The notes below the pieces were generated by a model. It ran no database searches. It was not told where the DNA came from and worked only from the letters and a program-made list of their open reading frames with translations. DNA of 64,000 bases from Heterodontus francisci (taxonomy: Eukaryota): positions 107,542,372 to 107,606,371 of the forward strand of contig NC_090382.1 of the NCBI RefSeq assembly GCF_036365525.1, given 5' to 3'. The position numbers were made by a program, and so were the translations under genes. Positions 3,289 through 64,000 of the stretch are shown in pieces; the first letter of the stretch is position 1, and every line of letters begins with the position of its first letter.

Positions 3289-4494
3289 TGCTTTGTATGA
3301 CGGTTTTTGCTGCTGTGGTTTCTTCTGCCCCCTCCTCCTCCTTTAAATGAGAAATCTCCAAGTAAGCTCTGTAGTTTGCTTTTGAGAGAAACTGGGACTT
3401 TCAGAGACGCCTTCCAGAACGGGGAAACAAGAGGTTTTTCCGCCATTCCCAGAGTCTGACATCTCTCACCAGCAGCAGATCTCTGATTGTTAAACAGTTC
3501 GGAAGGGTGGGTGGAAGTGGATGCGGTCAAACTCAAGATTTGGCTGATTTGGAAGGGATGGGTACCGTGCTGAGAATGTGGTGGCGGGGTATCTTGATCA
3601 GCCATTGAGAGGCTGTACGGGCTGGAAGGTTTGAATGGCATCCATTTGCCCTTATGTTCCTGGATCGAAAGAGGCCCAACCAGCCACACTTTGCTGACCA
3701 CCCCCATCCCCCCCACTTCACCCTCCCTTCCCCCCACACCACAGCTAACCCCACCGCAAAGCAAAACAGTCTGCCACAGCTCACTGCCAGACCTCACACA
3801 TGAGGAATGGATGTGTGGGTGAGTCACTCGAGGGCTGATTCTGTCCATGGGGTCCCTTTTAGGGAAGAGTCTAGAACTGAGGGTCCAGAATTTTAAAGAA
3901 ATGGTGCAACATTCAGAAAGCTCGAGTCTAGATTATCCATTGTAGAGGAACAGGATCCACTTGTCTTAAATATGAACAGGCCTCCACCCACCACACCCTG
4001 ACCCTGAGCTAAAATTAAATTAGAGGGTCATTTGCTTTATTCTGGCATGTTTCCCCCATCTCTGCCCAGGGGAGCAGTGGTCAGTGAGCTACTACCGTAG
4101 GCCAAGGAGACCCAGAGCAATCTAGCGTTACCGTAGGTTACTGCACCGATAGAGCAATCCAATAAGCTGCAGGCCTTTGAACATTTCCCAATGAAGTAAA
4201 GAAAGAACTTGCATTTCTATGGCGCCTATCCTCAGGACGTCCAAAGTACTTCACAGCCAAGCAAATAATTTTTTGAAGTGCAGCCAACTTACACACAGAA
4301 AGCTCAAACAGAGCAATGTGTTAAATGACCAAATAATCTGTTTTAGTGATGTTGTTTGAAGGATAAATATTGGTCCATGACTGTGGGGAGAATTCTCCTC
4401 ACTCTTCAAAATAACGCAATGGGGACTTTTACATCCATCGGGGAGAGCAGACGGGGCCTCAGTTTAACATGTCATCCGAAGGACGGTACCGACA

Positions 4495-6007
4495 ACAGTG
4501 CAGCACACCCTCATTACTACCCCTCCAACAGTGCAGCACACCCTCATTACTGCCCCTCCAGCAGTGCAGCACACCCTCATTACTACCCCTCCAACAGTGC
4601 AGCACACCCTCATTACTGCCCCTCCAACAGTGCAGCACACCCTCATTACTACCCCTCCAACAGTGCAGCACACCCTCATTACTGCCCCTCCAACAGTGCA
4701 GCACACCCTCATTACTGCCCCTCCAACAGTGCAGCACACCCTCATTACTGCCCCTCCAACAGTGCAGCACACCCTCATTACTGCCCCTCCAACAGTGCAG
4801 CACACCCTCATTACTACCCCTCCAACAGTGCAGCACACCCTCATTACTACCCCTCCAACAGTGCAGCGCTCCCTCATTACTACCCCTCCAAAAGTGCAGC
4901 ACACCCTCATTACTACCCCTCCAACAGTGCAGCGCTCCCTCATTACTACCCCTCCAAAAGTGCAGCACACCCTCATTACTACCCCTCCAACAGTGCAGCG
5001 CTCCCTCATTACTACCCCTCCGACAGTGCAGCACTCCCTCAGTACTGCCCCTCGGATAGTGCAGCACTACCTCAGTACTGCCCCTCTGACAGTGCAGCAC
5101 TCCCTCAGTACTGCCACTCTGACATTGCAGCACTCCCTCAGTACTGCCCCTCTGACAGTGCAGCACTCTCTCAGTACTGCCTCTCTGACAGTGCAGCACT
5201 CTCTCAGTACTTCCCCTCTGACAGTGCAGCACTCCCTCAGTACTGCCCCTCTGACAGTGCAGCACTCTCTCAGAACTTCCCCTCTGACAGTGCAGCACTC
5301 CCTCAGTACTGCCCCTCCGACAGTGCACCACTCTGTCAGTACTGCCCCTCTGACAGTGCAGCACTCTCTCAGTACTTCCCCTCTGACAGTGCAGCACTCC
5401 CTCAGTACTGCCCCTCTGACAGTGCAGCACTCTCTCAGTACTGCCCCTCTGACAGTGCAGCACTCACTTAGTACTGCCCCTCTGACAGTGCAGCACTCTC
5501 TCAGTACTGCCCCTCAGACAGTGCAGCACTCCCTCAGTACTGCACCTCTGAGTGCACCTTTCCCTCAGTACTGCCCCTCTGACAGTGCAGCACTCTCTCA
5601 GTACTGCCCCTCTGACAGTGCAGCACTCCCTCAGTACTGCCCCTCTGACAGTGCAGCACTCTCTCAGTACTGCCCCTCCGATAGTGCAGTACTCTCTCAG
5701 TACTGCCCCTCCGACAGTGCAGCACTCTCTCAGTACTGCCTCTCTGACAGTGCAGCACTCCCTCAGTACTGCCCCTCCGACATTGCAGCACTCTCTCAGT
5801 ACTGCCCCTCCGACAGTGCAGCACTCTCTCAGTACTGCCCCTCTGACACTGCAGCACTCTCTCAGTACTGCCCTTCCGACAGTGCAGCACTCTCTCAGTA
5901 CTGCCCCTCTGACACTGCAGCACTCTCTCAGTACTGCCCCTCTGACAGTGCAGCACTCTCTCAGTACTGCCCCTCTGACACTGCAGCACTCTCAGTACTG
6001 CCCCTCC
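4495..6007. repeat. 33-bp minisatellite (about 45 units) expanded inside a Deu-domain SINE
   Basis: Unit (a/g)acagtgcagcac(a/t)ccctca(t/g)tact(a/g)cccctc(c/t); 11-aa periodic ORFs in several frames; SINE sequence continues on both sides (4200-4495, 6012-6035). Confidence 0.95.
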
Positions 6008-6032
6008 ATTGTTTGCTCAAGTCTCTGGAGTG

Positions 6033-8402
6033 GGACAAGGGATATAGAGGATAGTACAAGGAAAAAATAGGAGGCTTATGGCAGATTCAAAGTGCTGCAA
6101 ACAGTGGTGGCCCCAGAGGAGTGTCGAAAATGTAGGGGGATTCTTAAAAAAGTAATGAGGTAACGAAGAAGAGACATGAAAAAACACTGGTGGGCAAGAT
6201 AAAGGAAAATCCCAAGGTATTTTATAAGTATATTAAGGGCAAGTGGATAACCTGGGTAAGAGTAGAGCCCATTGGGAACCAAAGTGGCAATCTGTGTGTG
6301 GAGCTGAAGGACATAGGTATGTTTTTAAACGATAACTTTTCATCTGTGTTCACTATCGAGAAGGACGATGTAGGTGTAGAGATCAGGGAGGGTGATTGTG
6401 ATATACTTGAACAAATTCGCATTGAATTGAAGGAGGTATTAGCTGTTTTAACAGGCTTAAAAGTGGATAAATCCCCAGGCCCAGATCTGATGTAACCCAG
6501 GCTGTTATGAGAGGCAAGGGAGGAGATAGCAGGGGCTCTGACACAAATTTTCAAATCCTCTCTGGCCACAAGAGAGGTACCAGAGGATGGGAGGACAGCG
6601 AATGTGGTACCATTATTCAAGAAGGGTAGAAGGGATAAACCAGGTAATTACAGGCCAGTGAAGCCAACATCAGTGGTTGGGAAACTATTGGAAAAATTCT
6701 GAGGGACAGGATTAATCTCCACTTGGAGAGGCAAGGATTAATCAAGGATAGTCAGCATGGCTTTGTCAGGGGGAGATCATGTCAAACAAATTTGATTGAA
6801 TTTTTCGATGAGGTGACTAGGTGTGTAAATGAGGGTAAAGCAGCTGATGTAGTCTACATGGACTTCAGTAAGGCTTTTGATAAGGTCCCACATGGGAGAT
6901 TGGTTAAGAAGGTAAGAGCCCATGGGATCCAGGGCAATTTGGCAAATGGGATCCAAAATTGACTTAGTGGCAGGAGGCAGAGGGTGATTGTCAAGGGTTG
7001 TTTTTGCGAGTGGAAGCCTGTGACCAGTGGTGTACCGCAGGGGTCAGTGCTGGGACCCTTGCTGTTTGTAGTGTACATTAATGATTTAGACGTGAATATA
7101 GGAGGTATGATCAGTAAGTTCACAGATGACACGAAAATTGATGGTGTCGTAAATAATGAGGAGGAAAGCCTTAGATTACAGGATGATATAGATGGGCTTG
7201 TAAGATAGGCGGAGCAGTGGCAAATGGAATTTAATCCTGAGAAATATGAGGTGATGCATTTTAGGAGGACAAACAAGGCAAGAGAATATATAATGGATGG
7301 TAGGACCCTAGGAAGTACAGAGGGTCAGAAGGACCTTGGTGTACTTGTCCATAGATCACTGAAGGCAGCAGCACAGGTAGATAAGGTGGATAGGAAGACA
7401 TATGGGATACTTGCCTTTATTAGCTGAGGCACAGAATATAAGAGCAGGGAGGTTATGATGGAGCTGTATAAAATGCTAGTTAGGCCACAGCTGGAGTACT
7501 GTGTACAGTTCTGGGCACCACACTATAGGAAGGATGAGATAGCACTGGAGAGGGTGCAGAAGAGATTCATCAGGATGTTGCCTGGGCTGGAGCAGTTCAG
7601 CTAGGAAGAGAGACTGGAAAGGCTAAGGTTGTTTTCCTTAGAGCAGAGAAGGCTGAGGGGGGACGTGATTGAGGTATACAAAATTATGATGGGCATTGAT
7701 AGGGTAGAGCGGCACAGTGGCGCAGTGGTTAGCACCGCAGACTCACAGCTCCAGCGACCCGGGTTCAATTCTGGGTACTGCCTGTGTGGAGTTTGCAAGT
7801 TCTCCCTGTGTCTGCGTGGGTTTTCTCCGGGTGCTCCGGTTTCCTCCCACAAGCCAAAAGACTTGCAGGTTGGTAGGTAAATTGGCCATTATAAATTGCC
7901 ACTAGTATCGGTAGGTGGTAGGGAAATATAGGGACAGGTGGGGATGTGGTAGGAATATGGGATTAGTGTAGGATTAGTATAAATGGGTGGTTGATGGTCG
8001 GCACAGACACGGTGGGCCGAAGGGCCTGTTTCAGTGCTGTATCTCTAAAACTAAAAACTTAGATAGGAAGAAGCTTTTTTCTTTAGTGGAGGGGTCAATA
8101 ACCAGGGGGCAGGAGGTTTAGAGGGGATTTAAGGTGAGGGGCAGGAGGTTAAGAGGGGATTTGAGGAAAGATCCTTTCACCCAGAGGGTGGTTGGAATCT
8201 GGAACACACTGCCTGAAGAGGTGGTAGAGGCAGGAACCCTCACATTTAAGAAGTATTCAGATGAGCACTTGAAAGGCCATAGCATACAAAGCTACGGGCC
8301 AAGTGCTGGAAAATGGGATTGGAATAGATTGGCCTGATGGCTTGCATGGACACGGTGGGCCGAAGGGCCTGTTTCTGTGCTGTGTAACTCAATTACTCTA
8401 TG
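6033..8402 (+). mobile_element. CR1 (HER1-like) LINE, 5'-truncated, degraded, with HE1 SINE inserted
   Basis: [33 protein letters not shown] and SKFTDD motifs; stops; microsatellite-like tail. Confidence 0.92.
7709..8060 (+). mobile_element. HE1-like V-SINE
   Basis: A box TGGCGCAGTGG, B box GGTTCAATTC, V-domain GTGGAGTTTGCA.GTTCTCCC, CR1-type 3' tail GGGCCGAAGGGCCTGTT. Confidence 0.9.
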
Positions 8403-17346: not shown

Positions 17347-20300
17347 GGTGAGACCCAAAGTAGTAGTCTCTCAGATGAGATAGTTGAGGCAAATGTAGAG
17401 GTTAAAGCAAGCAAGTCCAGTTGACAGGCCGAGCAGGGGCAGGACAGGGAGCGTGGAAGGTCTGGTAGGCTAAACTGCATTTACTTTAATGCAAGAAGCC
17501 TTACAGGTAAGGCAGATGAACTCAGAGCATGGATCGGTACATGGGATTGTGATATTATAGCTATTACGGAAACGTGGTTGAGGGATGGACAGGACTGGCA
17601 GCTCAATGTTCCGGGGTACTGATCTTTCCAGCGTGACAGAGGTGGAGGTAAGAGAGGAGGGGGAGTTGCACTATTGATTAGGAAGGACATCACAGCAGTA
17701 CTTAGAGAGGATATCCTGGGGGGGAATGTCCAGCGTGGCCAAATAGGTAGAACTTAGAAATAAGAAAGGGGTGATGACTTTGATGAGATTATACTATAGG
17801 CCCCCCAATAGTCAGAGGGAAGTGGAGGAGCATATATGTAGGGAAATCACAGATAGGTTTAGGAATTATAGGGTTGTAATAGTAGGTGATTTTAACTTCC
17901 CTGATATTGACTGGGACTCCCTTAGTGTTAAGGGATCAGATGGGGAAGAATTTGTTAAGTGTGTCCAGGATAGTTTTCTAAATCAGTATGTGGATGGCCC
18001 TACTAGAGAAGGGGCTACACTCGACCTCCTCTTAGGAAATGAGGCTGGGCAGGTGGTTGATGTGTCAGTGGGGGAGTACTTTGGGACCAGTGGGCATAAC
18101 TCTATTAGCTTCAAGATAGTTATGGAAAAGGATGGGATTGGTCCTCAGGTTGAAGTCTTATATTGGGGGAAGGCTAATTTCGATGGCATCAGACAGGAAC
18201 TCTCAAAAGTTGAGTGGGAGAGGCTATTTACAGGTAAAGGGACGTCTGGCAAGTGGAAGGCTTTTAAAAGTGATATAGGAAGAGTTCAGGGCCAGCATGT
18301 TCCTGTTAGATGGAAGGGCAAGGCTGGCAAGTTTAGGGAACCTTGGTTGACGAGGGATATTGAGGGTCTGGTCAGGACAAAGAAGGAGGCATATGTCAGG
18401 TATAGGCAGCTGGGATCAAGCGAGTCCCTCGAGGAGTATAGGGGATGTAGGACTATACTTAAGAAGGAAATTAGGAGGGCGAAAAAGGGCCATGAGATTT
18501 CCCTGGCAGATAAGATAAACGAGCATCCTAAAAGATTCTTTCAGTATATTAAGAGTAAAAGGGTAGCTGGGGAGAGAGTAGGTCCCCTTAAGGATCAGTG
18601 TGGCAATCCATGTGTGGAGCCACGGGAAATGGACGAGGTCTTAAATGAATATTTCTCGCCCGTATTTACCGTGGAGAAGGTCATGGAAGCTAGTGAGTTC
18701 AAGGGAGGGAACACTGATATCCTGGAGCAAATCAACATTACAAAGGAGGAAGTGTTGGAGGTTTTGAAGCGCATTAAGGTGGATAAATCCCCAGGGCCTG
18801 ACCAGGTGTATACTAGGATGCTATGGGAAGCAAGGGAGGAGATTGCTAGGGCCCTGGCAGATATTTTTCTATCATCGTTAGCCACGGGTGAGGTACCGGA
18901 AGACTGGAGGATAGCTAATGTTGTTCCTTTATTTAAGAAGGGCAGCAGGGATAAGCCAGGGAACTACAGGCCAGTGAGCCTTACATCAGTGGTGGGAACG
19001 TTATTGGAAGGGATTCTGAGAGACAGGATTTATATGCATCTGGAAAGGCATGGTCTGATTAGGGATAATCAGCATGGCTTTGTGCGTGGGAAATCATGTC
19101 TCACGAATTTGATTGAGTTTTTCGAGGAGGTAACCAAGAGGATTGACGAGGGCAGGGAGATGGACGTTGTCTACATGGACTTTAGCAAGGCCTTTGACCA
19201 GGTCCCGCATGGTAGGCTGGTCCAGAAGGTTCGAACACATGGGATCCAGGGTGAGCTAGCAAATTGGATGCAAAATTGGCTTGGTGATAGGAGGCAGAGG
19301 GTGGTAGTGGAGGGTTGTTTTTCAGATTGGAGGCCGGTGACCGGTGGTGTGCCGCAGGGATCGGTGCTGGGCGCTCTGTTGTTTGTCATATATGTTAATG
19401 ACTTGGATGTGAATGTAGGAGGCATGATTAGTAAGTTCACAGAGGACACCAAAATTGGTGGTATAGTGGACAGTAAAGAAGGTTGTCTAAGGTTACAACA
19501 GGATAAAGATCAACTGGGAAAGTGGGCAAGGGAGTGGCAAATGGAATTTAATGCAGGCAAGTGTGAAGTGATGCATTTTGGGAAGTTAAACCAGGGCAGG
19601 ACATATACAGTGAATGGCAGGGCACTGGGGAGTGTTGTCGAGCAGAGAGACCTTGGGGTGCAAGTACATAGTTCCCTGAAAGTGGCAACACAGGTAGACA
19701 GGGTGGTGAAGAAGACGTATGGCATGCTTGCCTTCATCGGCCGAGGCATTGAGTACAAGAGTTGGGACGTCATGTTACAGTTGTACATAACGTTGGTTAG
19801 GCCGCATTTGAAGTACTGTGTGACGTTCTGGTCACCCCACTACAGGAAAAATGTGATTAAGCTGGACAGGGTGCAGAAAAGATTCACAAGGATGTTCCGA
19901 AGAAGGGTCACTGACCAGAAACGTTAACTCTGCCTCTCTTTCCACAGATGCTGCCAGACCTGCTGCGTGATTCCAGCATTTTTTGTTTTTGTTTCAGATT
20001 TCCAGCATCCGCAGTATTTTGCTTTTATTCACAAGGATGTTGCCTGGTTTAGAGGGCTTGAGTTATAAAGAGAGATTGGATAGGCTGGGTCTGTTTTCCC
20101 TGGAGCGAAGGAGGCTGAGAGGGGACATGATAGAGGTATCTAAAATTATGGGAGGCATAGATAGGGTAGATAGCCAGATTCTGTTTCCCATGGTAGGGTT
20201 GAGTAAAACTAGAGGGCATAGATTTAAGGTGAGAGGGAGGAGGTTTAAAGGGGATCAAAGGGGTAAATTTTTCACACAAAGAATAGTGGGTATCTCGAAT

Positions 20301-21540: not shown

Positions 21541-22675
21541 GCAGTCAGCTTTTAAATGCCCTGCTTTATTACAATGGAAGCACACAGGTCTCCGGTCTCA
21601 CTCTTGCTCACAGCACCTTCATTTTTGGTTAGAGGGGGGCCCCAGTGTCTCCTGCTTTCCTTTTTCTCCCAGGACTGCTTGGACTCCTATCACCTTCCCA
21701 CCTTTGTCCCTTTCGGATTTGTGGAGTTGATCAGGAAAGGTTCTCCCCTGGGAAACCGACTTATAAATTAAAGCAAACTCATCGGCCAGGACGGCCGCTT
21801 GCCAGGCTCTCTGGACCCGCTTTATGGAGAGTGGGACATGGGTCTTTATGGAGAGTGGGAGAGAGTGTTTAACTTCCTCTAACAGAATTACTTCTCTGAG
21901 ACTCTCATAGCTGAGCTGCACTTTAAGAGCCCTCAGCCACTGGTCAAAAGCCAGTTGTTTACTTTTTTCAAACTCCAGATAAGTTTGATTAGCTTGCTTC
22001 TTGAGGGTTCTAAACTTTTGGCGATAGGCTTCAGATACTAATTCATATGCCCCAAGGATAGCATTTTTGGTCAGTTCATAATTTGATGAACTCTCATCTG
22101 GCAACAGGGAATAAACTTCATGGGCTTTTCCAGTTAGCTTGCCTTGTAATAAAAGAGGCCACGTCTCAGCTGGCCATTTTAGCTGCCTTGCCGCTTTCTC
22201 AAAGACACAAAAGAATTTCTACATCCTCCTCATTGAATTTTGGAATTAGTTGAGCTAGTTTTAACAATTTTGTATTCAGCTCTGAATTGTGCTCTCCATA
22301 TTGGCCATGCTTTCACTGGGGTTATTCTGTTTCCCCCTAGTTAACTCAAGCCGCTTCAATTCTCTCTCTTCGCGTGCCTTCTGGAATATTCTTTCTCTCC
22401 CCCTCTTCTCAAATTCAAGTTTCCTCTAGTTCCAATTGTATCTTTGCTAACAATACCCTGTCTGGGTCTGCTTCGAACCCTGTTTTTGCTTCTTCAGATT
22501 CAAGGGAAAAATGGTTGACCACTAGCCTTAGAAGTTCAGATTTCCTAGCCTTGCCACGTACAGTGATCCCACACTGCTCAGCCATTTTTCTCAACTCCTC
22601 CACAGACAGTACTTTTAACTTATCCCAAGTTACTTCACCCTGGCTTGGGGAGCTGCTAACTTCCGTCGCAAACAT
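21541..22675 (-). pseudogene. Degraded Gypsy gag (capsid/SCAN-like region plus CCHC knuckle)
   Basis: AILGAYELVSEAYRQKFR..LREVILLEE..AAVLADEF; CFHCNKAGHLKADC (CX2CX4HX4C) at 21541-21582; frameshifts. Confidence 0.85.
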
Positions 22676-24490: not shown

Positions 24491-25753
24491 TGTCACGGTC
24501 CTGTAGTTTTTTTGGGAATATGCAGTTTGCCTTTAAGGCTTGCAAGGGATCAGTATTGCTTTAAGAGCCTGCAAGCCTCAGGAGTTATAGAAAGGCGCAT
24601 TTTCGGTTGCCGTTAGAAACAGCCATTTGGAGACTGCAATTCAAAGGGTGCATTCTCGTTACCATAGATATAGCCACTGGGAGTGAGTCTGATGCGATAC
24701 ATTTGTTACAATTCAGTTTTGAACTGGCTCAGTAGTTGAAGACAGTTTGTTCTGACACACAGACAGAAGACACAGACAGCTGTGATGAGCACACCCGAAA
24801 AAGAGCTCTGAACCATTTTAACTGAAGGAATAGGATTCTTAGTCTGTTTAATTATTATCTCTCAAAATTCTAAGGAAAAGTCAAGCCAAAACAGAGATCT
24901 CTAGTAATTTAAATTGAAGAAAGGGAAGTTAGAATCTTTTATCCCTCAAAAACTTTAAACTCAGATTGATTCTGTTGAAAGTTTTGGCAAGTCGTTAATC
25001 GTTGAAATTGGCTGGAGAAGGAAAGCTACATTCTGGGAGGACTTCAAGCAACAGTCCGTGAGGAATTCGAGCAACATCCTGTAAGGGCTTCGATCAACAT
25101 CCTGTGAGGACTTCAAGCAGCATTGGACTGTAAATTTGCAAGGACTCTAATTTGTTTTTATTTAAATGTTGTTTATATCTTCATAGTGTTTAAGAATTTT
25201 TTTATTTTAGAGATACAGCACTGAAACAGGCCCTTCGGCCCACCGAGTCTGTGCCGACCAAGAACCACCCATTTATACTAACCCTACAGTAATCCCATAT
25301 TCCCTACCACCTACCTACACTAGGGGCAATTTACAATGGCCAATTTACCTATCACCTGCAAGTCTTTGGCGGTGGGAGGAAACCAGAGCACCTGGCGAAA
25401 ACCCACATGGTCACAGGAAGAACTTGCAAACTCTGCACAGGCAGTACCCAGAATTGAACCCGGGTCCCTGGAGCTGTGAGGCTGAGGTGCTAACCACTGC
25501 GCCACTGTGCCACCCTAGTTTAGCTCTTCTAATTAAAGAGTTAACTTGTTGATTTAAAGACACCTGGATGGTTAGCCTCATTCGGGGGGTAATAGTACAA
25601 TTCGGTTGGGTCTTTCTTTAAATTGGAAAGTTTTAAATGAAATGTCAGCCGACCTGTGGAGTGACGGGATTGAATTAACAGTGCGTTGGTCCCACTGCAA
25701 TCAGAATCGTATATTTTGATTGGGGGCTTTGACAGGAGCGGTCGGTCGTAACA
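24491..25753 (+). mobile_element. Solo LTR (second family) inserted in the 5' LTR
   Basis: TGTCAC...GTAACA ends; 4-bp TSD gagg/gggg (one mismatch); host LTR resumes afterwards. Confidence 0.8.
25196..25516 (-). mobile_element. HE1-like V-SINE
   Basis: Reverse-complement homologue of 7709-8060. Confidence 0.9.
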
Positions 25754-29184: not shown

Positions 29185-31275
29185 AACTCAGTGATGCCAT
29201 TGATTCTCTAGCCAGCGGAAACGCCCCTGGGAAGGACAGCATTACCCCTGAAATAATCAAGAGTGCCAAGCCTGCTATACTCTCAGCACTACATGAACTG
29301 CTATGCTTGTGCTGGGACGAGGGAGCAGTACCCCAGGACATGTGCGATGCCAATATCATCACCCTCTATAAAAACAAAGGTGACCGCGGTGACTGCAACA
29401 ACTACCGTGGAATCTCCCTGCTCAGCATAGTGGGGAAAGTCTTTGCTCGAGTCGCACTGAACAGGCTCCAGAAGCTGGCCGAGAGCGTCTACCCTGAGGC
29501 ACAGTGTGGCTTTCGTGCAGAGATTGACCATTGACATGCTGTTCTCCCTTCGTCAGATACAGGAGAAATGCCGTGAACAACAGATGTCCCTCGACATTGC
29601 TTTCATTGATCTCACCAAAGCCTTTGACCTCGTCAGCAGACGTGGTCTCTTCAGACTACTAGAAAAGGTTGGATGTCCACCAAAGCTACTAAGTATCATC
29701 ACCTCATTCCATGACAATATGAAAGGCACAATTCAACATGGTGGCTCCTCATCAGACCCCTTTCCTATCCTGAGTGGCGTGTGTTCTCGCACCCACACCT
29801 TTTGGGATTTTCTACTCCCTGCTGCTTTCACATGCATTCAAGTCTTCTGAAAAAGGAATTTTCCTCCACACAAGATCAGATGGCAGGTTGTTCAACCTTG
29901 CCCGTCTAAGAGGGAAGTCCAAAGTACGGAAAGTCCTCATCAGGGAACTCCTCTTTGCTGACGATGCTGCTTTAACATCTCACACTGAAGAGTGCCTGCA
30001 GAGACTCATCGACAGGTTTGCGGCTGCCTGCAATGAATTTGGCCTAACCATCAGCCTCAAGAAAACGAACATCATGGGGCAGGACGTCAGAAATGCTCCA
30101 TCCATCAATATTGGCGACCACGCTCTGGAAGTGGTTCAAGAGTTCACCTACCTAGGCTCAACTATCACCAGTAACCTGTCTCTAGATGCAGAAATCAACA
30201 AGTGCATGGGAAAGGCTTCCACTGCTATGTCCAGACTGGCCAAGAGAGTGTGGGAAAATGGCGCACTGACACGGAACACAAAAGTCCGAGTGTATCAAGC
30301 CTGTGTCCTCAGTACCTTGCTCTATGGCAGCGAGGCCTGGACAACGTATGTCAGCCAAGAGCGACGTCTCAATTCATTCCATCTTCGCTGCCTCCGGAGA
30401 ATAGGGGCGGCACAGTGGTTAGCACTGCAGCCTCACAGCTCCAGCGACCCGGGTTCAATTCTGGGTACTGCCTGTGTGGAGTTTGCAAGTTTTCCCTGTG
30501 TCTGCGTGGGTTTCCTCCCACAAGCCAAAAGACTTGCAGGTTGGTAGGTAAATTGGCCATTATAAATTGCCCCTAGTATAGGTAGGTGGTCGGGAAATAT
30601 AGGGACAGGTGGGGATGTGGTAGGGAGTATGGGATTAATGTAGAATTAGTATAATTGAGTGGTTGATGGTCGGCACAGACTCAGTGGGCCAAAGGGCCTG
30701 TTTCAATGCTGTATCTCTAAACATAAACAATACTTGGCATCAGGTGGCAGGACCTTATCTCCAACACAGAAGTCCTCGAGGCGGCCAACATCCCCAGCTT
30801 ATACACACTACTGAGTCAGCGGCGCTTGAGATGGCTTGGCCATGTGAGCCGCATAGAAGATGGCAGGATCCCCAAAGATACATTGGACAGCGAGCTCGCC
30901 ACTGGTATCAGACCCCCCGGCCGTCCATGTCTCCACTTTAAAGACGTCTGCAAACGTGACATGAAATCCTGCGACATGTATCACAAGTCGTGGGAGTCAG
31001 TTGCCAACGTTTGCCAGAGCTGGCAGGCAGCCATAAAGGCGGGGCTAAAGTGTGGCGAGTCAAAGAGACTTAGCAGTTGGCAGGAAAAAAGACAGAGGCG
31101 CAAGGGGAGAGCCAACTGTGTAACAGCCCCGACAAACAAATTTTTCTGCAGCACCTGTGGAAGAGCCTGTCACTCTAGAATTGGCCTTTATAGCCACTCC
31201 AGGCGCGGCTCCACACACCACTGAGCACCTCCAGGCGCTTACCCATTGTCTCTCGAGATAAGGAGGCCAAAGAGA
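29185..31275 (+). mobile_element. RTE-clade LINE (BovB/Expander-like), 5'-truncated, with HE1 insertion
   Basis: NYRGISLLS, AFIDLTKAFD, RELLFADDAAL, LLYGSEAW; C-terminal CSTCGRACHSRIGLYSH zinc finger. Confidence 0.93.
30404..30728 (+). mobile_element. HE1-like V-SINE inserted in the RTE
   Basis: Homologous to 7709-8060; short aata duplication; RTE resumes afterwards. Confidence 0.9.
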
Positions 31276-54796: not shown

Positions 54797-55024
54797 TTGT
54801 AGTATTTTGCTTTTATGTTAGTAAAACTGGGGTTGTTCTCCTTCAGGCAGAGAAGGTTAAGAGGAGGTATTCACAATCATGAAGAGTTTTGATAGAGTAT
54901 ATATGTAGAAACTGTTACCAGTGGCAGGTAGTGGCAGAGGATACAGGTTTAAGGTGATTGGCAAAAAAAACCAAGGTGGAATGAGAAGATTTTTTTTTAC
55001 AATGATCTGGGAGGCACTGCCTGA

Positions 55025-55550
55025 AACTTGCATTTATATAGCGCCTGTAACCTAATAAAATGTTCCAAGGTGCTTCAGAGTGTAATCAGACAAAAATGTG
55101 ACACAGAACCAGAAAAAGAGATATGAGGAGAGTTGACCAAAAGCTCAGCCAAAGAGGTAGGTTTTCAGGAGCATCTTAAAGGGGGAGAGAGTGGTAGAGA
55201 GACGGAGAGGTTTAGGGAGGGAATTCCAGCACTTAGGGCCGAGGCAGCTGAAGGCACGTCCGGCAATGGTGGAGTGACTAAAATAAGGATGCGCAAAAGG
55301 CTAGAGCACTTGAAGAGCTGTGGGGCTGGAGGAGATTACAGAGATAGGGAGGAGCGAGGCCATGGAGAGATTTGAAAACAAGGGTGAGAATTTTTAAATC
55401 GTAGCATTGCCTAACGGGGAACTGAAGTAGGTCAGCGGGCTCAGGGAGCGATGGGTGAATGGGACTTGGTACAAGTTAAGATATGGGCAGCAGAGTTTTG
55501 TATGAGCTCTGGATTATGGGGGACATAAGGCAGGAGGCCAGCCCGGAGAA
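55025..55550 (-). mobile_element. L2 3' fragment
   Basis: Homologous to 10300-11220. Confidence 0.75.
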
Positions 55551-57044
55551 TTCAAGTCCCGTCTGCTTATACAGCTTGTTGTTAAAGGTCCCACGGGACT
55601 ATCTTAAGAAGAGCAGTCTGTTCTCCCAGTGATTTGGCCAACATTCTTTCTTCGACAAACGCTAACAACACAGATTATTTTGACATTCAGTACATTGCTA
55701 CTTGTGGGATCTTGCTGTTCACAAAAGGCCTGTTGTGTTTGCATACAAAATAAAGATTCCTGTACTTGAAAGCAGCTCATTGGACATAGTGTAACCCGAT
55801 ACAACTGTGGAGGTAACGACAAAAGGTTGGTGTTGTGGGAGATAGCAAGCTACAAAGTTAAGTCCTCTGGTTAGATATCACTAAAACTCTAAACTAACAC
55901 TAGGAGCTATGCTATGGATCGTTAGTGTAAAGAGGAGAAACTGATCTATGGTATGCAAGAAGAAGGAAGTTACTTTAATGAAAAACTTCAATTAACCCAA
56001 ATTAAACTAGGGAAACCCAATGGTTTGGAGTCAAGAGTTGGTAGATGTAATGCCTGACTACATCAGGACCTGCTGAGCGACCAGGAACTGGTATGGGCTA
56101 GGATATGGGCAGGAGGGTATTGCATGAGCTGACAATTGCAGTGGGTGGAATTAAAATGGGCTGAATGGCCTTCCTCATTAACAATCCGGAGGGGGCAGAA
56201 CCTTAAACTCAGAGCTAGGCCATTCAGGAACTATGATGTCAGGAAGCACTTCTTCACACAAAGGGTCGTGGGAATTTGGAACTCTCTCCCCACAAAGCTG
56301 TTGAGACTGGGAGTCAGTTGAAAATGTCAAAACTGAGGTTGATCGATTTTTGTTAAGCAATGGTGTTAAGGGTTATGAAATCAAAGCTGGTAAATGGAGG
56401 TAAGATCTAGATCAGCCATGATCTGATTGAATGGTGGAATCGGCTCGAGGGATGAATCCTGTTACTATGATCTTGTGATCTTATGTGAAGAACTTTGAAT
56501 TGTTTCTGAGATAATAAATCGAATTGTACAACATAGAAGGCCATTTGGCCTGTCGTGTCTACGCTGGAGTGGCACAAAAATGGAATGTTTTCCTTTTCTC
56601 AAGGTTATTAAGTTTAAAAGAGCTTAAAATATCATCCAGTACTTAAAATGAATAATCAATTGCAGACATATTACAATTGTGGGTGTTGCAGCTTCAGTTC
56701 TGTGATCAGCGTCATCTCCCTGTGGCCGGATCTGTGATCAGCAAATTCAGACTTAACTCGCAGTCTTGCTGTGCAGAGCTCCAAAGTGTTTGACGGCCGA
56801 AAGATTTTGATTGACAATGTCTCCCCCTCCAGAGATCTGCGTTAATTAGGAGTAGGGAAGGTTCGGAATATCGGTCAATGCAACACTAGCACTGAGATAA
56901 CTTTATGCAGACACCAGTTGCTATGGTAATCAGGAGTCCTGATCATGTCATTAAGGCTGCAGAAACACAGCAGCCTCTGAGATTGTTGCTTTCTGCCCTC
57001 TCAATGGGAGAGTGCATGACTGCATTTTAAACATACTCCTTCCT

Positions 57045-57610
57045 TAGAATCATACAGCACAGGAGGCCATCATGCTAGCTCTTTGAAGGAGTTATCCAAT
57101 TAGCCCCACTCTTCTTGCTCATTCCCCATAGCCCTGCAAATTTTTCCTTTTCAAAAATTTATCCAATTCCCTTTTGAAAGTTTCTATTGAATCTGTTTCC
57201 ACTGCCCTTTCAGGCAGCGCGTTCCAGATCACAACAAATCACTGTGTAAAAAAAAAATTCTCATCTCTCCTCTGGTTCCTTTGCCAGTTATCTTAAATCT
57301 GTGTCCTCTGGTTACTGAGCCTCCTGCCACAAGAAACAGTTTCTCCTATATACATTATTAAAATCTTTAATAATTTTTTGCACCTCTATTAAATCTTCTC
57401 TTAACCTTCTCTGCTCTAAGGAGAACAACCCCAGCTTCTCCAGTCTCTCCACATAACTGAAGTCCCTCATCCCCATTCTAGTAAATCTTCTCTGCACCTT
57501 CTCTCTAAAACCCTTGAAATCATTCCCAAAGTGTTGTGCACAGAATTGAACACAATAATCCAGTGGAGGCCTAACTAGTGGTTTTAAAGGTTTAGCATAA
57601 CCTCCTCGCT
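57045..57610 (-). mobile_element. CR1 3' fragment
   Basis: ERLEKLGLFSLEQRRLREDLIEV. Confidence 0.8.
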
Positions 57611-57613
57611 CTC

Positions 57614-58737
57614 TGTTGCAAATAATTTTACTACACTTTTTTGTGTCTATCCCTTCGTGATGATGATGAGGCTTGCTGGGATACGATTCTGGAAGGAGAG
57701 CTTCCTGGCTCTACACGAGAAAATGCCCGCAGGATATTCATTGCAGTTGTTATGGAATTTCCATATATTTCTTGTTAAAACTTGGAATCTATATTTTTAA
57801 ATTGAAGAGGCTGACCTTTGGGTGTTTTTTTGAAAGGAAGTTCAACAAAAATTTAAACAGTAAACAAGTTTTTAATGGAAAGCAGGTGACTTCAAGTAAA
57901 CACCACATGGGGTTTGACTTCAGAGCTATTTTGTGTTGTGACAAGAGAGAATTTATGATTAGCATGAGAATTGCCTGGAAAAAAAATTTGGTTTCACTTT
58001 GACCTGTTAAAAGATGCTGGTTTTTGGACTAAAAGCAGGCAGTTGGAATCTGCATATGAGCCTGCCAGGAGATCAGAAGAAAAAACAGATAACTGTATTC
58101 TCTCTTTAAAGAATCCCTGCTATTGAAAAGCAAAAGTCTGTATGTAGTGGTACTCTTTGCCTCCTGCATTTTTAAGAAACACTGAATATTTGCAGAAACC
58201 TTGCATCTTCAAATGAACTTTGCATTGAATATGTAAGTATTGAAACCTCTGTTGCTGCACACCTGATGCGAAGCCTTCTGCAGTTGAATTTCTTTGAATA
58301 CCTACTCAAACACATTGTTCATCAACCTCGCCTGGAAAAATTCCTAGCGGCAGCCAGCTATTCGACTTTGGGACACCTCGCCAGAACAAAGGACTTCCAT
58401 CTCTTCTCTTCAGTATAAGTTATATTTTTAATTCCTTTGTAACAAAAATCCTTTTTTTCTCCTTAGTTAACCAGTTATTGCATGTATGTGCGTGTATGTG
58501 AGGGATAGGATAAAAAAACAGGGCTTTAATATTTCAATTATCGTATATATTTACTTCATCATTGATTAAGACTTGATTTATAATAAACAGTTAATTTTGT
58601 TGGTGTGCTTTATTCTGGGGACAAATAGTGTATCTAATTGGCTGTTTCAGTGAGTGGGAAAATTTATTGATCCTTTGTGACCTGTGGCGTTAATGGGACT
58701 GAATTAACAGTGAACTCCTCCCACCTTGGTCGTAACA
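57614..58737 (+). mobile_element. Probable solo LTR related to 24491-25753
   Basis: Ends gggactgaattaacagtg..ggtcgtaaca like the 24491-25753 LTR; AATAAA present; 5' boundary and TSD uncertain. Confidence 0.6.
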
Positions 58738-59877
58738 CAGTCAGGCCCAATCTTGTCTTCGGCTGATATGCACGCATCTGCGTTGTACAGCAGAGACTGG
58801 GGATGTAGGGGTTGTGACGGGAGCTGAAGCCCATCTCATTTTCCCTCACTGACTGGTACCAATTGTTGGGAGCCTCAGCTTAAGACTCAGGTGGCATCGT
58901 TCTCTCAGCGCAGGCCCGAAATAAAACTTGGGATCTTCTGACCTTGAATTTGATATGGGGAGCGGGCGGGAAAGTGGAGTTGAAGCCCAAGATCAGCCTT
59001 AATCATATTGAATGGAGGAGCAGGTTCAATGGGCCGTATGATCTACTCCGACTCCTTTCTTATCTTATGATTAGCTCTGCCACAAGCACAAGGGGCCAAA
59101 TGGCTGCCTTCGATGCTGTATTAATCTATCATTCGATAGTTTAGTTCTGTATCACATGTATCACTCAGCAAGACAGCAGGGGAGTTGTATAAACTTAGGG
59201 AACATACAAAATGGATGAGCAGGAAAAGTCCAGCTGGCCGATTAAGCCAGCTGATGGCTGGACCATCGTGGCTGGACACTGCCTCTTCCCTCCTAGCCTT
59301 GTCATCTCCTGGGGGAAGCAACAAAAAAAAAACAATAAGGGAAAAAATACATTGGAAAATTGCTGTCCGATCCCCTCAGACAATCGAGAACAGTCCAGGA
59401 GATCACACTGACTACTTAACCTCGATATGAAGCGATCTCTCCCCCAGTCAGGAACTGGTCCAGATCCCTCTTGTAGGTGTGTCGAGAGTAAAAGAAACTT
59501 AAAACAAGCCTTTATGGAAAAAAAAAGTGTGATAATAGAGTGAAATAAAACTCACTGGAAAGAAGCCCAGAGAAACAAAAAGCTCAAAACAGCGAATTAA
59601 GTAAATGCTGCAGACATTTGCCTCAGTATTTTCTCTTTGCTCTAAAATGGACCTTTTCCATATTGATATATTTTGGTGCAAACAGTTCGATGTTTAATGC
59701 ATGATTATCATTTTCAGTCAAGCACTCAGTGCTTAGTGGCCCTTGAAAAAAATGCAAAAGTTGCAAGAGGGCCTCAATTTAAGTAACTGCTTTGCTAACT
59801 GCTCAGTCTCCTTGCCTTTCCATTCCGTCTCCTACCCAAACAGAGTAGAATATCCCTATTCCGTGTATTCTGGCTTG

Positions 59878-60880
59878 TTACGGAAGGTCCTCATCAGGGA
59901 ACTCCTCTTTGCGGACGATGCTGCATTAACATCTCACACTAAAGAGTGTCTGCAGAGACTCATCGACAGGTTTGCGGCTGCCTGCAACGAATTTGGCCCA
60001 ACCATCAGCCTTAAGAAAATGAACATCATGGGACAGGACATCAGAAATGCTTCATCCATCAATATCGGCGACCACGCTCTGGATATGTTTCAAGAGTTCC
60101 CCCACCTAGGCTCAACTATCACCAGTAACCTGTCTCTCGATGCAGAAATCAACAAGCACATGGGAAAGGCTTCCACTGCTATGTCCAGATTGGCCAAGAG
60201 AGTGTAGGAAAATGGCGCACTGACACGGAACACAAAAGTCCGAGTGTATCAAGCCTGTGTCCTCAGTACCTTGCTCTATGGCAGCGAGGCCTGGACAACG
60301 TATGTCAGCCAAGAGCGACGTCTCAAATCATTCTATCTTCGCTGCCTCCGGAGAATCCTTGGCATCAGGTGGCAGGACCGTATCTGCAATGCAGAAGTCC
60401 TCGAGACGGCCAACATCCCCAGCATATACACCCTACTGAGACAGCGGCGCTTGAGATGGCTTGGCCATGTGAGCCGCATGGAAGATGGCAGGATCCCCAA
60501 GAATGCATCGTACAGCAAGCTCGTCACTGGTATCAGACCCACTGACCGTCCATGTCTCCGCCTTAAAGACGTCCTGTGACATTGACCACAAGTCATGAGA
60601 GTCAGTTGCCAGTGATCGCCAGAGCTGGCGGACAGCCATAAAGGCGGGGCTAAAGAGTGGCGAGTCGAAGAGACTTAGCTGTTGGCAGGAAAAAAGACAG
60701 AAGCGCAAGGAGAGAGCCAACTGTGTAACAGCCCGACAACCAATTTTATCTGCAGAGCCTGTGGAAGAGTCTGTCACTCTAGAATTGGCCTTTATAGCCA
60801 CTCCAGGCACTGCTTCACAAACCACTGTCCACCTCCAGGCGCTTACCCATTGCCTCTCGAGACAAGGAGGCCAAAGAAGA
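59878..60880 (+). mobile_element. RTE-clade LINE 3' portion
   Basis: RELLFADDAAL through the zinc finger and gaagaagaa tail; stop codon at about 60205. Confidence 0.92.
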
Positions 60881-61130
60881 AGAACCCACAGTATTCACAA
60901 AGACAGAATGCTGGTAATTCTCAGACTACCCAATGAGGTTAGAAAACTCCGCCTGTTGTCCGGGTTGTCGGAGAATCACCAGCGCCTTTGCTTGTGATGC
61001 ATCGATTTGTGCTTATCTTATATGAGAGAAGGGACTCCCAGGGCCAGCTTGCATTCGACAATTTTAGGAAGACTTCAGATGTTGGAAATATGAAATAGAA
61101 ACAGAAAATGCAGAGTAGAACCAAATCTCA

Positions 61131-62003
61131 CAACTAAGGTCGGTGGAGTTGTGGATAGTGCCGAAGGATGTTGTAGGGTACAGAGGGACATAGATAGGCT
61201 GCAGAGCTGGGCTGAGAGATGGCAAATGGAGTTTAATATGGAAAAGTGCGAGGTGATTCACTTTGGAAGGAGTAACAGGAATGCAGAGTACTGGGCTAAT
61301 GGGAAGATTCTTGGTAGTGTAGATGAACAGAGAGATCTTGGTGTCCAGGTACATAAATCCCTGAAGGTTGCTACCCAGGTTAATAGGGCTGTTAAGAAGG
61401 CATATGGTGTGTTAGCTTTTATTAGTAGGGGGATCGAGTTTCGGAGCCACGAGGTCATGCTGCAGCTGTACAAAACTCTGGTGAGACCGCACCTGGAGTA
61501 TTGCGTGCAGTTCTGGTCACCGCATTATAGGAAGGATGTGGAAGCTTTGGAAAGGGTGCAGAGGAGATTTACTAGGATGTTGCCTGGTATGGAGGGAAGG
61601 TCTTACGAGGAAAGGCTGGGGGACTTGAGGTTGTTTTCGTTGGAGAGAAGGAGGAGGAGTGGTGACAATAGAGCCATATAAGATAATCAGAGGGTTAGAT
61701 AGGGTGGATAGTGAGAGTCTTTTTCCTCGGATGGTGATGGCAAACACGAGGGGACATAGCTTTAAGTTGAGGGGTGATAGATATAGGACAGATGTCAGAG
61801 GTAGTTTCTTTACTCAGAGAGTAGTAAGGGCGTGGAACGCCCTGCCTGCAGCAGTAGTAGACTCACCAACTTTAAGGGCATTTAAGTGGTCATTGGATAG
61901 ACATATGGATGAAAATGGAATAGTGTAGGTCAGATGGTTTCACAGGTCGGTGCAACATCGAGGGCCGAAGGGCCTGTACTGCGCTGTAATGTTCTAATTC
62001 TAA
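61131..62003 (+). mobile_element. CR1 3' portion, young subfamily
   Basis: ORF 61151-61681; (attcta)n tail; near-identical to 32489-33370. Confidence 0.92.
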
Positions 62004-62209
62004 TTCACAGAATTGGAGGCCATTGGGCCCATCATCTCTGTGCTGGTTCTTTGGACAATCTATCCAATTACTCCCACCAACACCTGCCCTCACCAATCTT
62101 TTGAAAGTTTCTCTTGAATCTGCTTCCATCAACCTTTTGGGCAGAGAAATCCAGATCACAACTCACTGCATAAAAGTTTTTTCATGTTGCCTCTGGTTCT
62201 TTTGTTGTG

Positions 62210-63583
62210 ACTGAAAGCATTCTGATAGACCGCATAAGGGATCAAGGAAAGCATGAGACTCCTAAGAGGGAGGGGCAGACTTCAGTTAGAGTCATCAGAA
62301 ATCAAGGCAGGGCTGATAGTCAGGACTTGGAAGCATCTGACTCTCCACAGTGAAGGGCTGGCACTCAGCCAGGGTCTCTTGAATTCCCCGATGCCCTGGC
62401 AACACTGCCCACTGCTGAACAGGTACAGGCACTCTTTGATACAGGAGATGATTACTCATTCACAGATCCTGTAATTATAAAAACTCAGTGGTCAGATTTG
62501 GGAAACCCGCTTTATCAGTTATCAGTAGGGGGATTTAGACAGTGAGGCGCGCATCCATTGTCTCTCGAGATAAGGAGGCCCAAAAGAAAAGAGACACAGC
62601 TGATTGACTTTAATGAAACTCCTGTTACTATTTATGGTTTTACGGCCACCCTGGAGGTGGGTTTAGTAACTGATTTGGTTTACCCTCTTATTATAGGACA
62701 GCCTGATATTAAATACTTCCTTAAGATCACTCCCAGGCCTGTCCTGATCACGGACCAGGATAACCGACAGAAATATATCCAGGCACAGATAGACCACACC
62801 TGTCTAGACGGGGGTGATTAGGGTGTTTTGGAACAGCTCCTCAACAAGTTCTACCCTTATCTACAGCATCATCCGAACCTATGTGGCAAGGTAGATATAG
62901 AACCTCACTCTCATGATGCAGGCTGGCACAAGTCCAGGAAACAGTGGCCTATTCAGGATTATAAAGGGAAATTAGATCTACTCGACACTATTAGGGATTT
63001 AGAGGAACACGGTGTCCTAATAAAAATGCCCCTCTAGAACGAATTCACCATTGTTTGGTGTCCCTAAACCTGATGGCAGGTGGAGATGAGTGGTCGATTA
63101 CACATCCTTTAATAAAGTTTCAGTGCCAAACACTGCTCAGCAGCAGAATTCCACTGCCCTTGCTTCCAGCATAAAAAGAGAAAAATTTAAATCTTGTATT
63201 TATTGGGCTAACGGTTTTTGGTCGCACCCACTTAAAGAATCTGATTGGCGAAAAACTGTGATGACTGCCCCTGACAGCCTTCAACACTGTTGGACTAGAT
63301 TACCCCAGGGATTTCAAAACAGTCACATTCATTTTTCTGCACATATTATCCATCTTTTAAAAGACCTGCCCAATGTTAACTCGTACGTGGATGACATTTA
63401 TATTTCACATAATGATTTCCAGGAACACTTGCAGGCTGTTGATACAGGTTTATCCCAGCTCATTGCTGTTGGATACCTGATCAACATTAAAAAGAGTCAG
63501 TTCATTCGAGAGGAAGTAGATTTCTTCGGCCTCTGTATAACAGTGAATGGTAGGGGATTAACTCAGCCCTATATAGAGACATT
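62210..63583 (+). mobile_element. Endogenous foamy-virus-like (spuma-related) retrovirus, degraded pro-pol
   Basis: Protease ALFDTG (DTG at 62438-62446); NSPLFGVPKPDGRWR*VVDY; ANGFWSHP; CWTRLPQGFQNS; LPNVNSYVDDIYISH; GRGLT. Stops, a frameshift at about 63030 and RTE insertions. Confidence 0.88.
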
Positions 63584-64000
63584 CTAAAAGCGTCAAAGTA
63601 CGGAAAGTCCTCATCAGGGAACTCCTCTTTGCTGACGATGCTGCTTTAACATCTCACACTGAAGAGTGCCTGCAGAGACTCATCGACAGGTTTGCGGCTG
63701 CCTGCAATGAATTTGGCCTAACCATCAGCCTCAAGAAAACGAACATCATGGGGCAGGACGTCAGAAATGCTCCATCCATCAATATTGGCGACCACGCTCT
63801 GGAGATGATTCAAGAGTTCACCTACCTAGGCTCAACTATCACCAGTAACCTGTCTCTAGATGCAGAAATCAACAAGCGCATGGGAAAGGCTTCCACTGCT
63901 ATGTCCAGACTGGCCAAGAGAGTGTGGGAAAATGGCGCACTGACACGGAACACAAAAGTCCGAGTGTATCAAGCCTGTGTCCTCAGTACCTTGCTCTATG
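63584..64000 (+). mobile_element. RTE-clade LINE fragment running off the window end
   Basis: About 4 differences in about 400 nt from the copy at 29920-30326. Confidence 0.93.

What the first reader, a model, noticed from the sequence alone, without database searches (positions are those of the whole stretch)
62210..63583. Endogenous foamy-virus-like pol fossil
Seen: reconstructed PR-RT with DTG, LQHHPNLCGKVDIEPH, KQWPI, VPKPDGRWR, QQQNS, ANGFWSHP, CWTRLPQGFQNS, LLKDLPNVNSYVDDIYISH, GYLINIKKS and ITVNGRGLT. These line up with prototype foamy virus Pol as I recall it (WQHWENQVGHRKIRPH, VPKPDGRWRMVLDY, ANGFWAHP, YCWTRLPQGFLNS, IPNVQVYVDDIYLSH, ITKEGRGLT), and better than with Gypsy or gamma/epsilon RTs. 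Foamy-like ERVs are known from fishes and a chimaera, so this is likely a further lineage relevant to the marine origin of spumaviruses. Insertions of the young RTE family postdate it.
Basis: partly seen in the sequence, partly recalled or inferred. Interest (0 to 1): 0.72.

Follow-up and report, generated by a model that had tools for sequence, protein, structure and literature searches.

The report
Coelacanth-like foamy virus fossil in shark
This is a broken 1.4-kb piece of a foamy-virus polymerase gene, buried among jumping genes in what is likely a shark genome; it groups with land-vertebrate foamy viruses rather than with known fish ones and is likely closest to the coelacanth's, which would point to an ancient jump between distant vertebrate hosts.

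Summary
Window 62206-63593 (+) is a decayed protease-RT remnant of a foamy-type endogenous retrovirus, interrupted by a 48-bp RTE tail and cut off by a young RTE. The RT matches solved foamy PR-RT at E 3e-41, against 3e-12 for Ty3 and 2e-7 for MLV. Five trees place it on the side of mammalian foamy viruses and salamander elements, away from ray-finned fish elements and the chimaera element; four pair it with an unnamed Gag-Pol protein, P0005. Support is moderate and AU tests are borderline (p 0.03-0.09). By eye, the closest published element is coelacanth CoeEFV: about 50% RT identity against 47% for the best mammalian virus, five shared motifs absent from my other references, and apparently the same in-frame gag-stop-pol layout. 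CoeEFV could not be put in a tree. Related contigs 9-18% divergent in one organism's runs show an old multi-copy family. The shark host rests on recalled repeat families, not on a tool. RNase H, integrase, env and LTRs could not be checked. Verdict: a new lineage of a known kind, of specialist interest because it tests the land-to-coelacanth jump hypothesis.

The parts
62010..62205 (-). Old CR1-type LINE 3' remnant forming the left border; no gag or LTR found further left
   Evidence: 62098-62204 is 75% identical to other window copies; CR1-like translation on the minus strand (CR1 label recalled); no significant foamy hits further left
62206..62353 (+). Likely Gag C-terminal tail, in the same frame as the protease, ending in a TGA at 62351-62353 that may be the natural Gag stop
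   Evidence: Covered by related contigs from about 62222-62258 on; open frame 62207-62350; length and end resemble the CoeEFV Gag tail by eye; weak score against P0005 Gag, 5 of 200 shuffles as good. Inferred.
62354..62818 (+). Aspartic protease domain and PR-RT linker, interrupted; DTG at 62438-62446
   Evidence: Motif and position; residues 118-223 of the read-through frame align to PFV PR-RT 85-188, E 0.09, the five best of six PDB hits being foamy; retropepsin families among weak Atlas leads 0.88-0.91; no Pfam hit
62545..62592 (+). 3' tail of an RTE LINE inserted into the protease
   Evidence: 84-88% identical to the 3' ends of RTE copies at 60837-60881 and 31233-31275; skipped by 2 contigs of run X1 and at least 5 of X4
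62822..63037 (+). RT N-terminal (fingers) part, first frame
   Evidence: Profile hit E 7e-12 among 1616 window pieces; 21-26 identities in 63-65 positions to 15 foamy Pols
63039..63587 (+). RT palm, second frame, one internal stop; YVDD at 63384-63395; ends at the start of the thumb
   Evidence: Pfam RVT_1 E 1.6e-17; PDB 7ksf E 2.9e-41; 43-47% identity to mammalian foamy viruses
63594..64000 (+). Young 5'-truncated RTE LINE that cuts the pol gene and runs off the window
   Evidence: 4 differences in 407 bases to the copy at 29920-30326

Best explanation
This is the dead remnant of a foamy-type retrovirus that likely entered the germ line of a shark ancestor long ago, left many copies, and was then cut up here by CR1 and RTE retroelements; its RT groups with tetrapod foamy viruses and is likely nearest to the coelacanth virus CoeEFV. 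Shown: RT identity, spuma-like placement, breaks, multi-copy family, RTE insertions younger than the element. Inferred: the virus made a protease-RT-RNase H-integrase Pol like other foamy viruses and integrated as an LTR provirus; Pol probably lay in the same frame as Gag behind a stop, as in the CoeEFV consensus, and was made either by read-through or from a spliced message; the lineage reached cartilaginous fishes by a cross-class jump rather than by descent from the chimaera-type elements. This copy makes no working enzyme.
For: Best hits are foamy viruses in every library: PDB, clustered proteins, viral genomes, 17 foamy genomes at 40-46% before any other retrovirus at 25-37%. Trees: window on the mammalian-FV side with SH 0.949, 99/93, 94/87, 94/86, 100/98 after three long rows were left out; sister to P0005 (0.907, 89/85, 94/85, 92/79), unresolved. 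Window held with the 11 fish-type rows: p-AU 0.037. It carries 26 of 67 FV-diagnostic residues and 5 of 27 fish-type ones; the chimaera protein P0021 carries 15 and 8. By eye against the CoeEFV Pol printed in PMC3386198 supplements: about 89 of 178 palm and 28 of 65 fingers positions identical. Five window motifs found there (INIKKS, DIEPH, LQ.H.N, HP..E.DW.K, KS....ANGFWSHP) occur in 0 of 15 FV proteins, 0 of 17 FV genomes and 0 of 23 other spuma-like proteins; INIKKS occurs only in coelacanth rows of two published supplements. All 17 mammalian FV genomes have pol overlapping gag in another frame; the window, CoeEFV (by eye) and P0005 appear to keep one frame. Family: 15 listed contig pieces differ by 9-18%, one 166-bp piece is identical.
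Against: Only about 250 aligned positions from a decayed copy with a long end branch (0.7-0.9). The FV-side clade is below the star threshold in the two longer mixture-model trees. Holding the window with the chimaera element P0021 is not rejected (p-AU 0.09); the other AU values are near 0.03-0.04 and the groups were named after the first trees were seen. CoeEFV, tuatara, caecilian, frog and catshark ERV-Spuma.0-Sca sequences were not in any tree. The CoeEFV comparison is by eye, the margin is only 3-5 points, and the motifs were picked after seeing the match; two further motifs tested (NK.S.P, VDF.G) were not specific. The host class is recalled from the look of its repeats. The gag tail is a weak assignment and no read-through structure stands out (z -0.4). 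The foamy A9 protease family is not detected.
Confidence: 0.72

Rival explanations
1. It is a basal shark foamy-like lineage, kin to the chimaera CmiFLERVs, that co-diverged with cartilaginous fishes and is drawn toward true foamy viruses by slow change or short alignment.
For: AU test does not reject window plus P0021 (p 0.09); published shark elements have unstable positions (PMC5512871).
Against: Only 35% identity to P0021 against 43-47% to mammalian FVs; never joined to P0021 in five trees; FV-diagnostic residues 26 against 15; coelacanth-type motifs.
Confidence: 0.13
2. It is on the true-foamy side but the host is not a shark (for example a coelacanth or another lobe-finned fish), so there is no cross-class story, only a second CoeEFV-like lineage.
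For: No tool named the host (no genome held); the likeness to CoeEFV would fit naturally.
Against: The window holds a tRNA-derived SINE that shares its 3' tail with the CR1 LINE, which I recall as the HE1/HER1 pair of sharks and rays, and its CR1, RTE and L2 proteins read like elasmobranch ones (recalled); a catshark protein, P0010, also falls on the FV side.
Confidence: 0.08
3. It belongs to the ray-finned fish type of foamy-like ERVs, like catshark ERV-Spuma.0-Sca, and is one more member of an already described group.
For: A catshark element of that type is published (PMC10699275) and a catshark protein P0033 sits in that clade here.
Against: 30-41% identity to those rows, 34% to P0033; AU p 0.037; 5 of 27 fish-type residues.
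Confidence: 0.05
4. It is a lokiretrovirus, ERV-L/snakehead-type, gamma/epsilon ERV or Ty3/Gypsy element with chance foamy likeness.
For: The protease has an ordinary DTG motif and no Spuma_A9PTase hit; gag and pol in one frame is the gamma/epsilon/snakehead layout.
Against: E-values differ by about 29 orders of magnitude; all these groups fall outside its clade; AU p 0.032. No named loki reference was on hand; P0028/P0143 are only loki-like by position.
Confidence: 0.02

Closest known systems
CoeEFV, coelacanth endogenous foamy-like virus (Han and Worobey 2012, PMC3386198)
   Same: By eye about 50% RT-palm identity, five shared motifs, similar PR-RT linker, plain DTG protease, and a gag stop in frame with pol 25 codons (window: 28) before the catalytic Asp.
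   Different: Only about half the RT positions match, so a separate lineage; likely a different host class; no in-frame ATG between the stop and the protease motif in this copy; env, LTR and PBS not seen.
Mammalian foamy viruses (Spumaretrovirinae: PFV, SFV, FFV, BFV, EFV)
   Same: 43-47% RT identity, YVDD, NGFW.HP and RLPQGF motifs, same side of the tree.
   Different: No A9 protease hit; no +1 gag/pol overlap seen, where 17 of 17 genomes have one; outside their clade.
P0005, unnamed Logan protein (1687 aa, 10,956-nt contig)
   Same: Sister row in 4 of 5 trees; plain retropepsin; Gag and Pol in one frame.
   Different: 39% identity only; Gag-Pol is open with no stop; lacks the five coelacanth-type motifs; host unknown.
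CmiFLERV (Callorhinchus milii; Aiewsakun and Katzourakis 2017, PMC5512871) and ERV-Spuma.0-Sca (catshark; PMC10699275)
   Same: Foamy-like ERVs of cartilaginous fishes, decayed, several copies.
   Different: Published as basal or as kin of ray-finned fish elements; P0021 (likely the protein of a listed CmiFLERV record) is 35% identical and falls outside the window's group. ERV-Spuma.0-Sca was not compared at sequence level.

Membership tests
Foamy-like ERVs (FLERV / clade Tu / ERV-Spuma) | RT clusters with foamy viruses to the exclusion of other retroviruses and Ty3/Gypsy | tested here: met
   100/99, 99/96; exclusion p-AU 0.032
Foamy-like ERVs (FLERV / clade Tu / ERV-Spuma) | Endogenous and decayed, flanked by host repeats | tested here: met
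   Stops, frame change, LINE insertions; related copies and one identical piece in DNA runs
Foamy-like ERVs (FLERV / clade Tu / ERV-Spuma) | LTRs, PBS, target-site duplication, gag-pol-env order | not testable with these tools
   No genome held; the window ends inside the RTE; nothing found to the left
Tetrapod/coelacanth foamy virus clade | Pol groups with mammal, salamander and coelacanth elements, apart from ray-finned fish and chimaera elements | tested here: inconclusive
   Recovered in 5 of 5 trees, starred in 2 of the 4 IQ-TREE runs; AU 0.037 against fish type, 0.09 against chimaera
Tetrapod/coelacanth foamy virus clade | Foamy-type Env (pfam03408) and group II integrase | not testable with these tools
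   Genes absent from the window
Spumaretrovirinae in the strict (mammalian) sense | A9 protease (PF03539) | tested here: not met
   No hit at E up to 10; P0005 also lacks it; decay and the insertion lower sensitivity
Spumaretrovirinae in the strict (mammalian) sense | pol in a separate frame overlapping gag, expressed apart from Gag | tested here: inconclusive
   The frame that would match the mammalian layout has 10 stops in 62212-62449; the same-frame reading has one; the gag assignment is weak and expression cannot be tested
Spumaretrovirinae in the strict (mammalian) sense | Gag GR boxes, internal promoter, tas/bet | not testable with these tools
   No Y.LR.R motif in + frames of 55001-64000; the region is missing
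CoeEFV lineage | Sister grouping with CoeEFV in a Pol tree | not testable with these tools
   CoeEFV seen only as text in supplements; by-eye comparison and motif counts favour it
Lokiretrovirus | RT sister to all other retroviruses; fusion-protein-like env | tested here: not met
   RT is nested in the spuma-like clade; no named loki row was available and env was not testable

The most novel reading that the evidence does not exclude
Sharks carry an old, multi-copy foamy virus of the coelacanth (CoeEFV) lineage. The coelacanth virus would then not be a lone land-to-sea jump but part of a marine radiation of true foamy viruses passing between lobe-finned and cartilaginous fishes, and this branch kept gag and pol in one frame, which would make the separate Pol frame of mammalian foamy viruses a later invention.
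Probability: 0.45. Interest if true: 0.7.

Novelty: new member of a known kind. Interest (0 to 1): 0.5.

Why it matters
Published trees place shark foamy-like elements at the base or with ray-finned fish elements, and explain CoeEFV by a Permian jump from a land amniote to a lobe-finned fish (PMC5512871; PMC6955096). A shark family on the tetrapod/coelacanth side gives a second marine data point for that hypothesis and makes its direction and date testable. Endogenous foamy viruses are described as rare (PMC8922424). The apparent single-frame gag-pol in this branch also bears on when Gag-independent Pol expression arose. I found no report of such a shark lineage in ten searches, but the library lacks most subscription papers, including Chen et al. 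2021 J Virol.

Tried and rejected
No genome is held, so nothing right of 64000 could be read. Homolog search among proteins of 90-289 aa gave no hit at E 1e-8; no close (over 50%) protein relative was found in any library. Single-protein scan of viral contigs found nothing; the metagenome scan gave 23 loci at 21-38%, the two I placed falling among the Gypsy-type outgroup rows. No gag, LTR, RNase H, integrase or env remnant elsewhere in the window. Pfam does not see the protease; pairwise scores against 15 protease regions were weak, best z 3.2 to a Gypsy-type protein; the single-sequence fold was useless, pLDDT 33; Atlas recognition was below threshold. No unusual RNA structure after the 62351 stop. 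No Rfam family in the window. No RNA holder listed; pieces in X5, whose RNA status is a guess, say nothing on expression. Grouping with catshark P0010 was disfavoured (p-AU 0.038), and P0010's own place among mammalian viruses is a long-branch result I do not trust. Earlier findings of this scan: none in three look-ups. The zebra shark genome paper gave nothing on CR1 or ERVs; the V-SINE paper is not held.

Full report
Observation. The element runs from about 62206 to 63593. A first frame carries a short upstream stretch, a stop at 62351, the DTG motif at 62438, the PR-RT linker and the RT fingers; a second frame from about 63039 carries the RT palm with YVDD at 63384. Further breaks are stops at 62543, 62819, 63087 and 63585, the frame change, and a 48-bp insertion. 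The first catalytic aspartate motif of RT is not intact (alignment). Several breaks lie where nearly all related contigs differ from the window (40 of 220 variable places were shown), so they are decay of this copy. The 62351 stop was not among the rows shown.

Identity. The 165-aa open stretch hits solved foamy PR-RT at E 3e-41 to 6e-38, then Ty3 at 3e-12 and MLV at 2e-7. Among 1.84 billion representatives the best single-domain hits are feline foamy virus Pol and an unnamed Gag-Pol, P0005. In the viral collection 17 of 36 loci are foamy-sized genomes at 40-46% identity and the other 19 are at 25-37%. The upstream frame is the only significant hit among 1616 six-frame pieces to a profile of foamy-type N-terminal regions. 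The protease is not seen by Pfam, folds badly as a single sequence and gets only weak retropepsin leads in the Atlas; I assign it by motif, position and likeness to CoeEFV.

Surroundings and order of events. The window is repeat-rich (55% self-repeat, GC 0.454), and I saw no host gene among ORFs of 110 aa or more. Left of the element lie an old CR1 remnant, a younger CR1 (96% to another copy) and an RTE copy. The 62545-62592 stretch is the 3' tail of that RTE family and is skipped by related contigs. The RTE at 63594 cuts pol at the start of the thumb and differs at 4 of 407 bases from another copy. Both are therefore younger than the element. No genome is held, so RNase H, integrase, env and LTRs could not be sought.

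Family and age. Four runs of one organism from one study hold 21-24% of the stretch's words. Laid at 80% likeness, two DNA runs of one sample show 3-27 contigs at the listed places inside the element; the 15 listed non-identical pieces differ by 9-18% and one 166-bp piece is identical (only the longest of about 15,000 records were shown). This is an old multi-copy family. With the shark rates assumed in PMC4422223 (2.2e-10) and PMC10699275 (5e-10), 13% between copies gives roughly 130-300 million years. That is a rough upper figure, since copies may have differed before they integrated.

Placement. A FastTree of 152 rows and four IQ-TREE runs (59, 37, 41 and 34 rows) all put the window inside the spuma-like clade and on the side of mammalian foamy viruses and, where included, Pleurodeles elements, apart from ray-finned fish elements, catshark P0033 and chimaera P0021. 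Support for that side was 99/93, 94/87, 94/86 and 100/98, the last after leaving out three long rows and with a simpler model. Rows were chosen by me from the proteins and loci fetched; many lack names. AU tests on the 37-row set: window outside the spuma-like clade p 0.032, with fish-type rows p 0.037, with P0010 p 0.038, with P0021 p 0.09. These are borderline and the groups were named after I had seen trees. P0021 is likely the protein of a record listed as a CmiFLERV (the pairing of accession numbers is my inference).

Closest published element. CoeEFV could be read only as text. Against its Pol in the PMC3386198 supplements I count by eye about 89 of 178 palm positions and 28 of 65 fingers positions identical, against 47% and 26 of 65 for the best mammalian virus. 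Five of seven window motifs tested are shared with CoeEFV and with none of 15 foamy proteins, 17 foamy genomes and 23 other spuma-like proteins; they were picked after seeing the match. INIKKS occurs once in the PMC6955096 supplement and twice in the PMC6669660 supplement, each time in a coelacanth row. Published Pol trees put CoeEFV nearer to amniote viruses than salamander elements are, which is the position the window and P0005 take (89/87).

How it worked. From established knowledge, the source virus reverse-transcribed its genome with a PR-RT-RNase H enzyme and integrated into a germ cell; many copies followed by reinfection or copying within the genome. All 17 mammalian foamy genomes have pol overlapping gag in a different frame, while the three non-foamy genomes checked have both in one frame across a stop. 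In the window the frame matching the mammalian layout has 10 stops, whereas the protease frame runs back to 62207 with one stop, 28 codons before the catalytic Asp. In the CoeEFV figure the gag stop and pol start are, by my count, in one frame with 25 codons to the Asp, and P0005 has Gag and Pol in one open frame with a foamy-type Y.LR.R motif. I infer that this branch kept gag and pol in one frame. Read-through and splicing both remain possible; no special RNA structure follows the stop, and the gag assignment is weak.

Host. No tool names it. A tRNA-derived SINE at 30403-30728 shares its 3' tail with the CR1 at 61962; I recall this as the shark HE1/HER1 pair, and the LINE proteins read as elasmobranch ones to me. 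I put a cartilaginous fish at about 90%.

Literature seen. PMC10699275: parts 1-3 of 4 and a supplement search. PMC5512871: part 1 of 8, passages, sections 8 and 10, supplement searches. PMC3386198: part 1 of 4 and supplement passages. PMC4422223: part 1 of 2. Passages only: PMC6001957, PMC12690878, PMC5210030, PMC6955096, PMC7947760, PMC8922424, PMC6669660, PMC10620051, with supplement searches for PMC6955096 and PMC6669660. Gag-independent Pol expression in foamy viruses is from abstracts in listings (PMC8402755; PMC7019881). Foamy-like ERVs are already known from a chimaera and a catshark, placed basally or with ray-finned fish elements. Ten searches showed no shark element on the tetrapod/coelacanth side. 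Chen et al. 2021 was not held, the ERV-Spuma.0-Sca protein was not found by motif in its supplements, and tree figures could not be seen; any of these may bear on novelty.

Verdict. A real, ordinary-looking fossil of a known kind whose place in the tree is not ordinary. Foamy-like identity about 0.97; tetrapod/coelacanth side in a shark about 0.72; CoeEFV lineage with the cross-class story about 0.45. Interest 0.5.

Noticed in passing
P0005 (Logan, 10,956-nt contig; not in the window): An intact-looking foamy-type protein with Gag, protease, RT, RNase H and integrase in one 1687-aa open frame, a Y.LR.R motif at 469 and a foamy integrase SH3 hit; mammalian foamy viruses have no such fusion frame. 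Host unknown.
   Followed up: partly
P0002 (Logan, 10,295-nt contig; not in the window): An unnamed intact 1156-aa foamy Pol with A9 protease, 55% identical to orangutan SFV, branching at or just outside mammalian foamy viruses.
   Followed up: partly
P0010 (Scyliorhinus torazame gene model): A foamy-side RT joined to a PRDM11 PR domain in one gene model, likely a mis-joined ERV; a second catshark protein, P0033, lies in the fish-type clade, so catsharks seem to hold two foamy-like lineages.
   Followed up: partly
window 59879-60881 and 63594-64000: Two RTE copies 3.7 kb apart are 5'-truncated within about 5 bases of the same point, though only 95% identical to each other.
   Followed up: no
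window 30403-30728; 7719-8055; 25201-25503: tRNA-derived SINE copies sharing a 3' tail with the CR1 LINE; one is inserted in the RTE copy around 29187-31273.
   Followed up: partly
window about 4430-6020: Long C-rich tandem array with a unit of about 24 bases, open in several frames.
   Followed up: no
window 21541-22215 (minus): Gag-like remnant of a Gypsy element, 37% identical to a SCAN-bearing Gypsy polyprotein (P0215).
   Followed up: no
window 17747-19927 (plus): A 726-codon open CR1-type ORF2 stretch.
   Followed up: no
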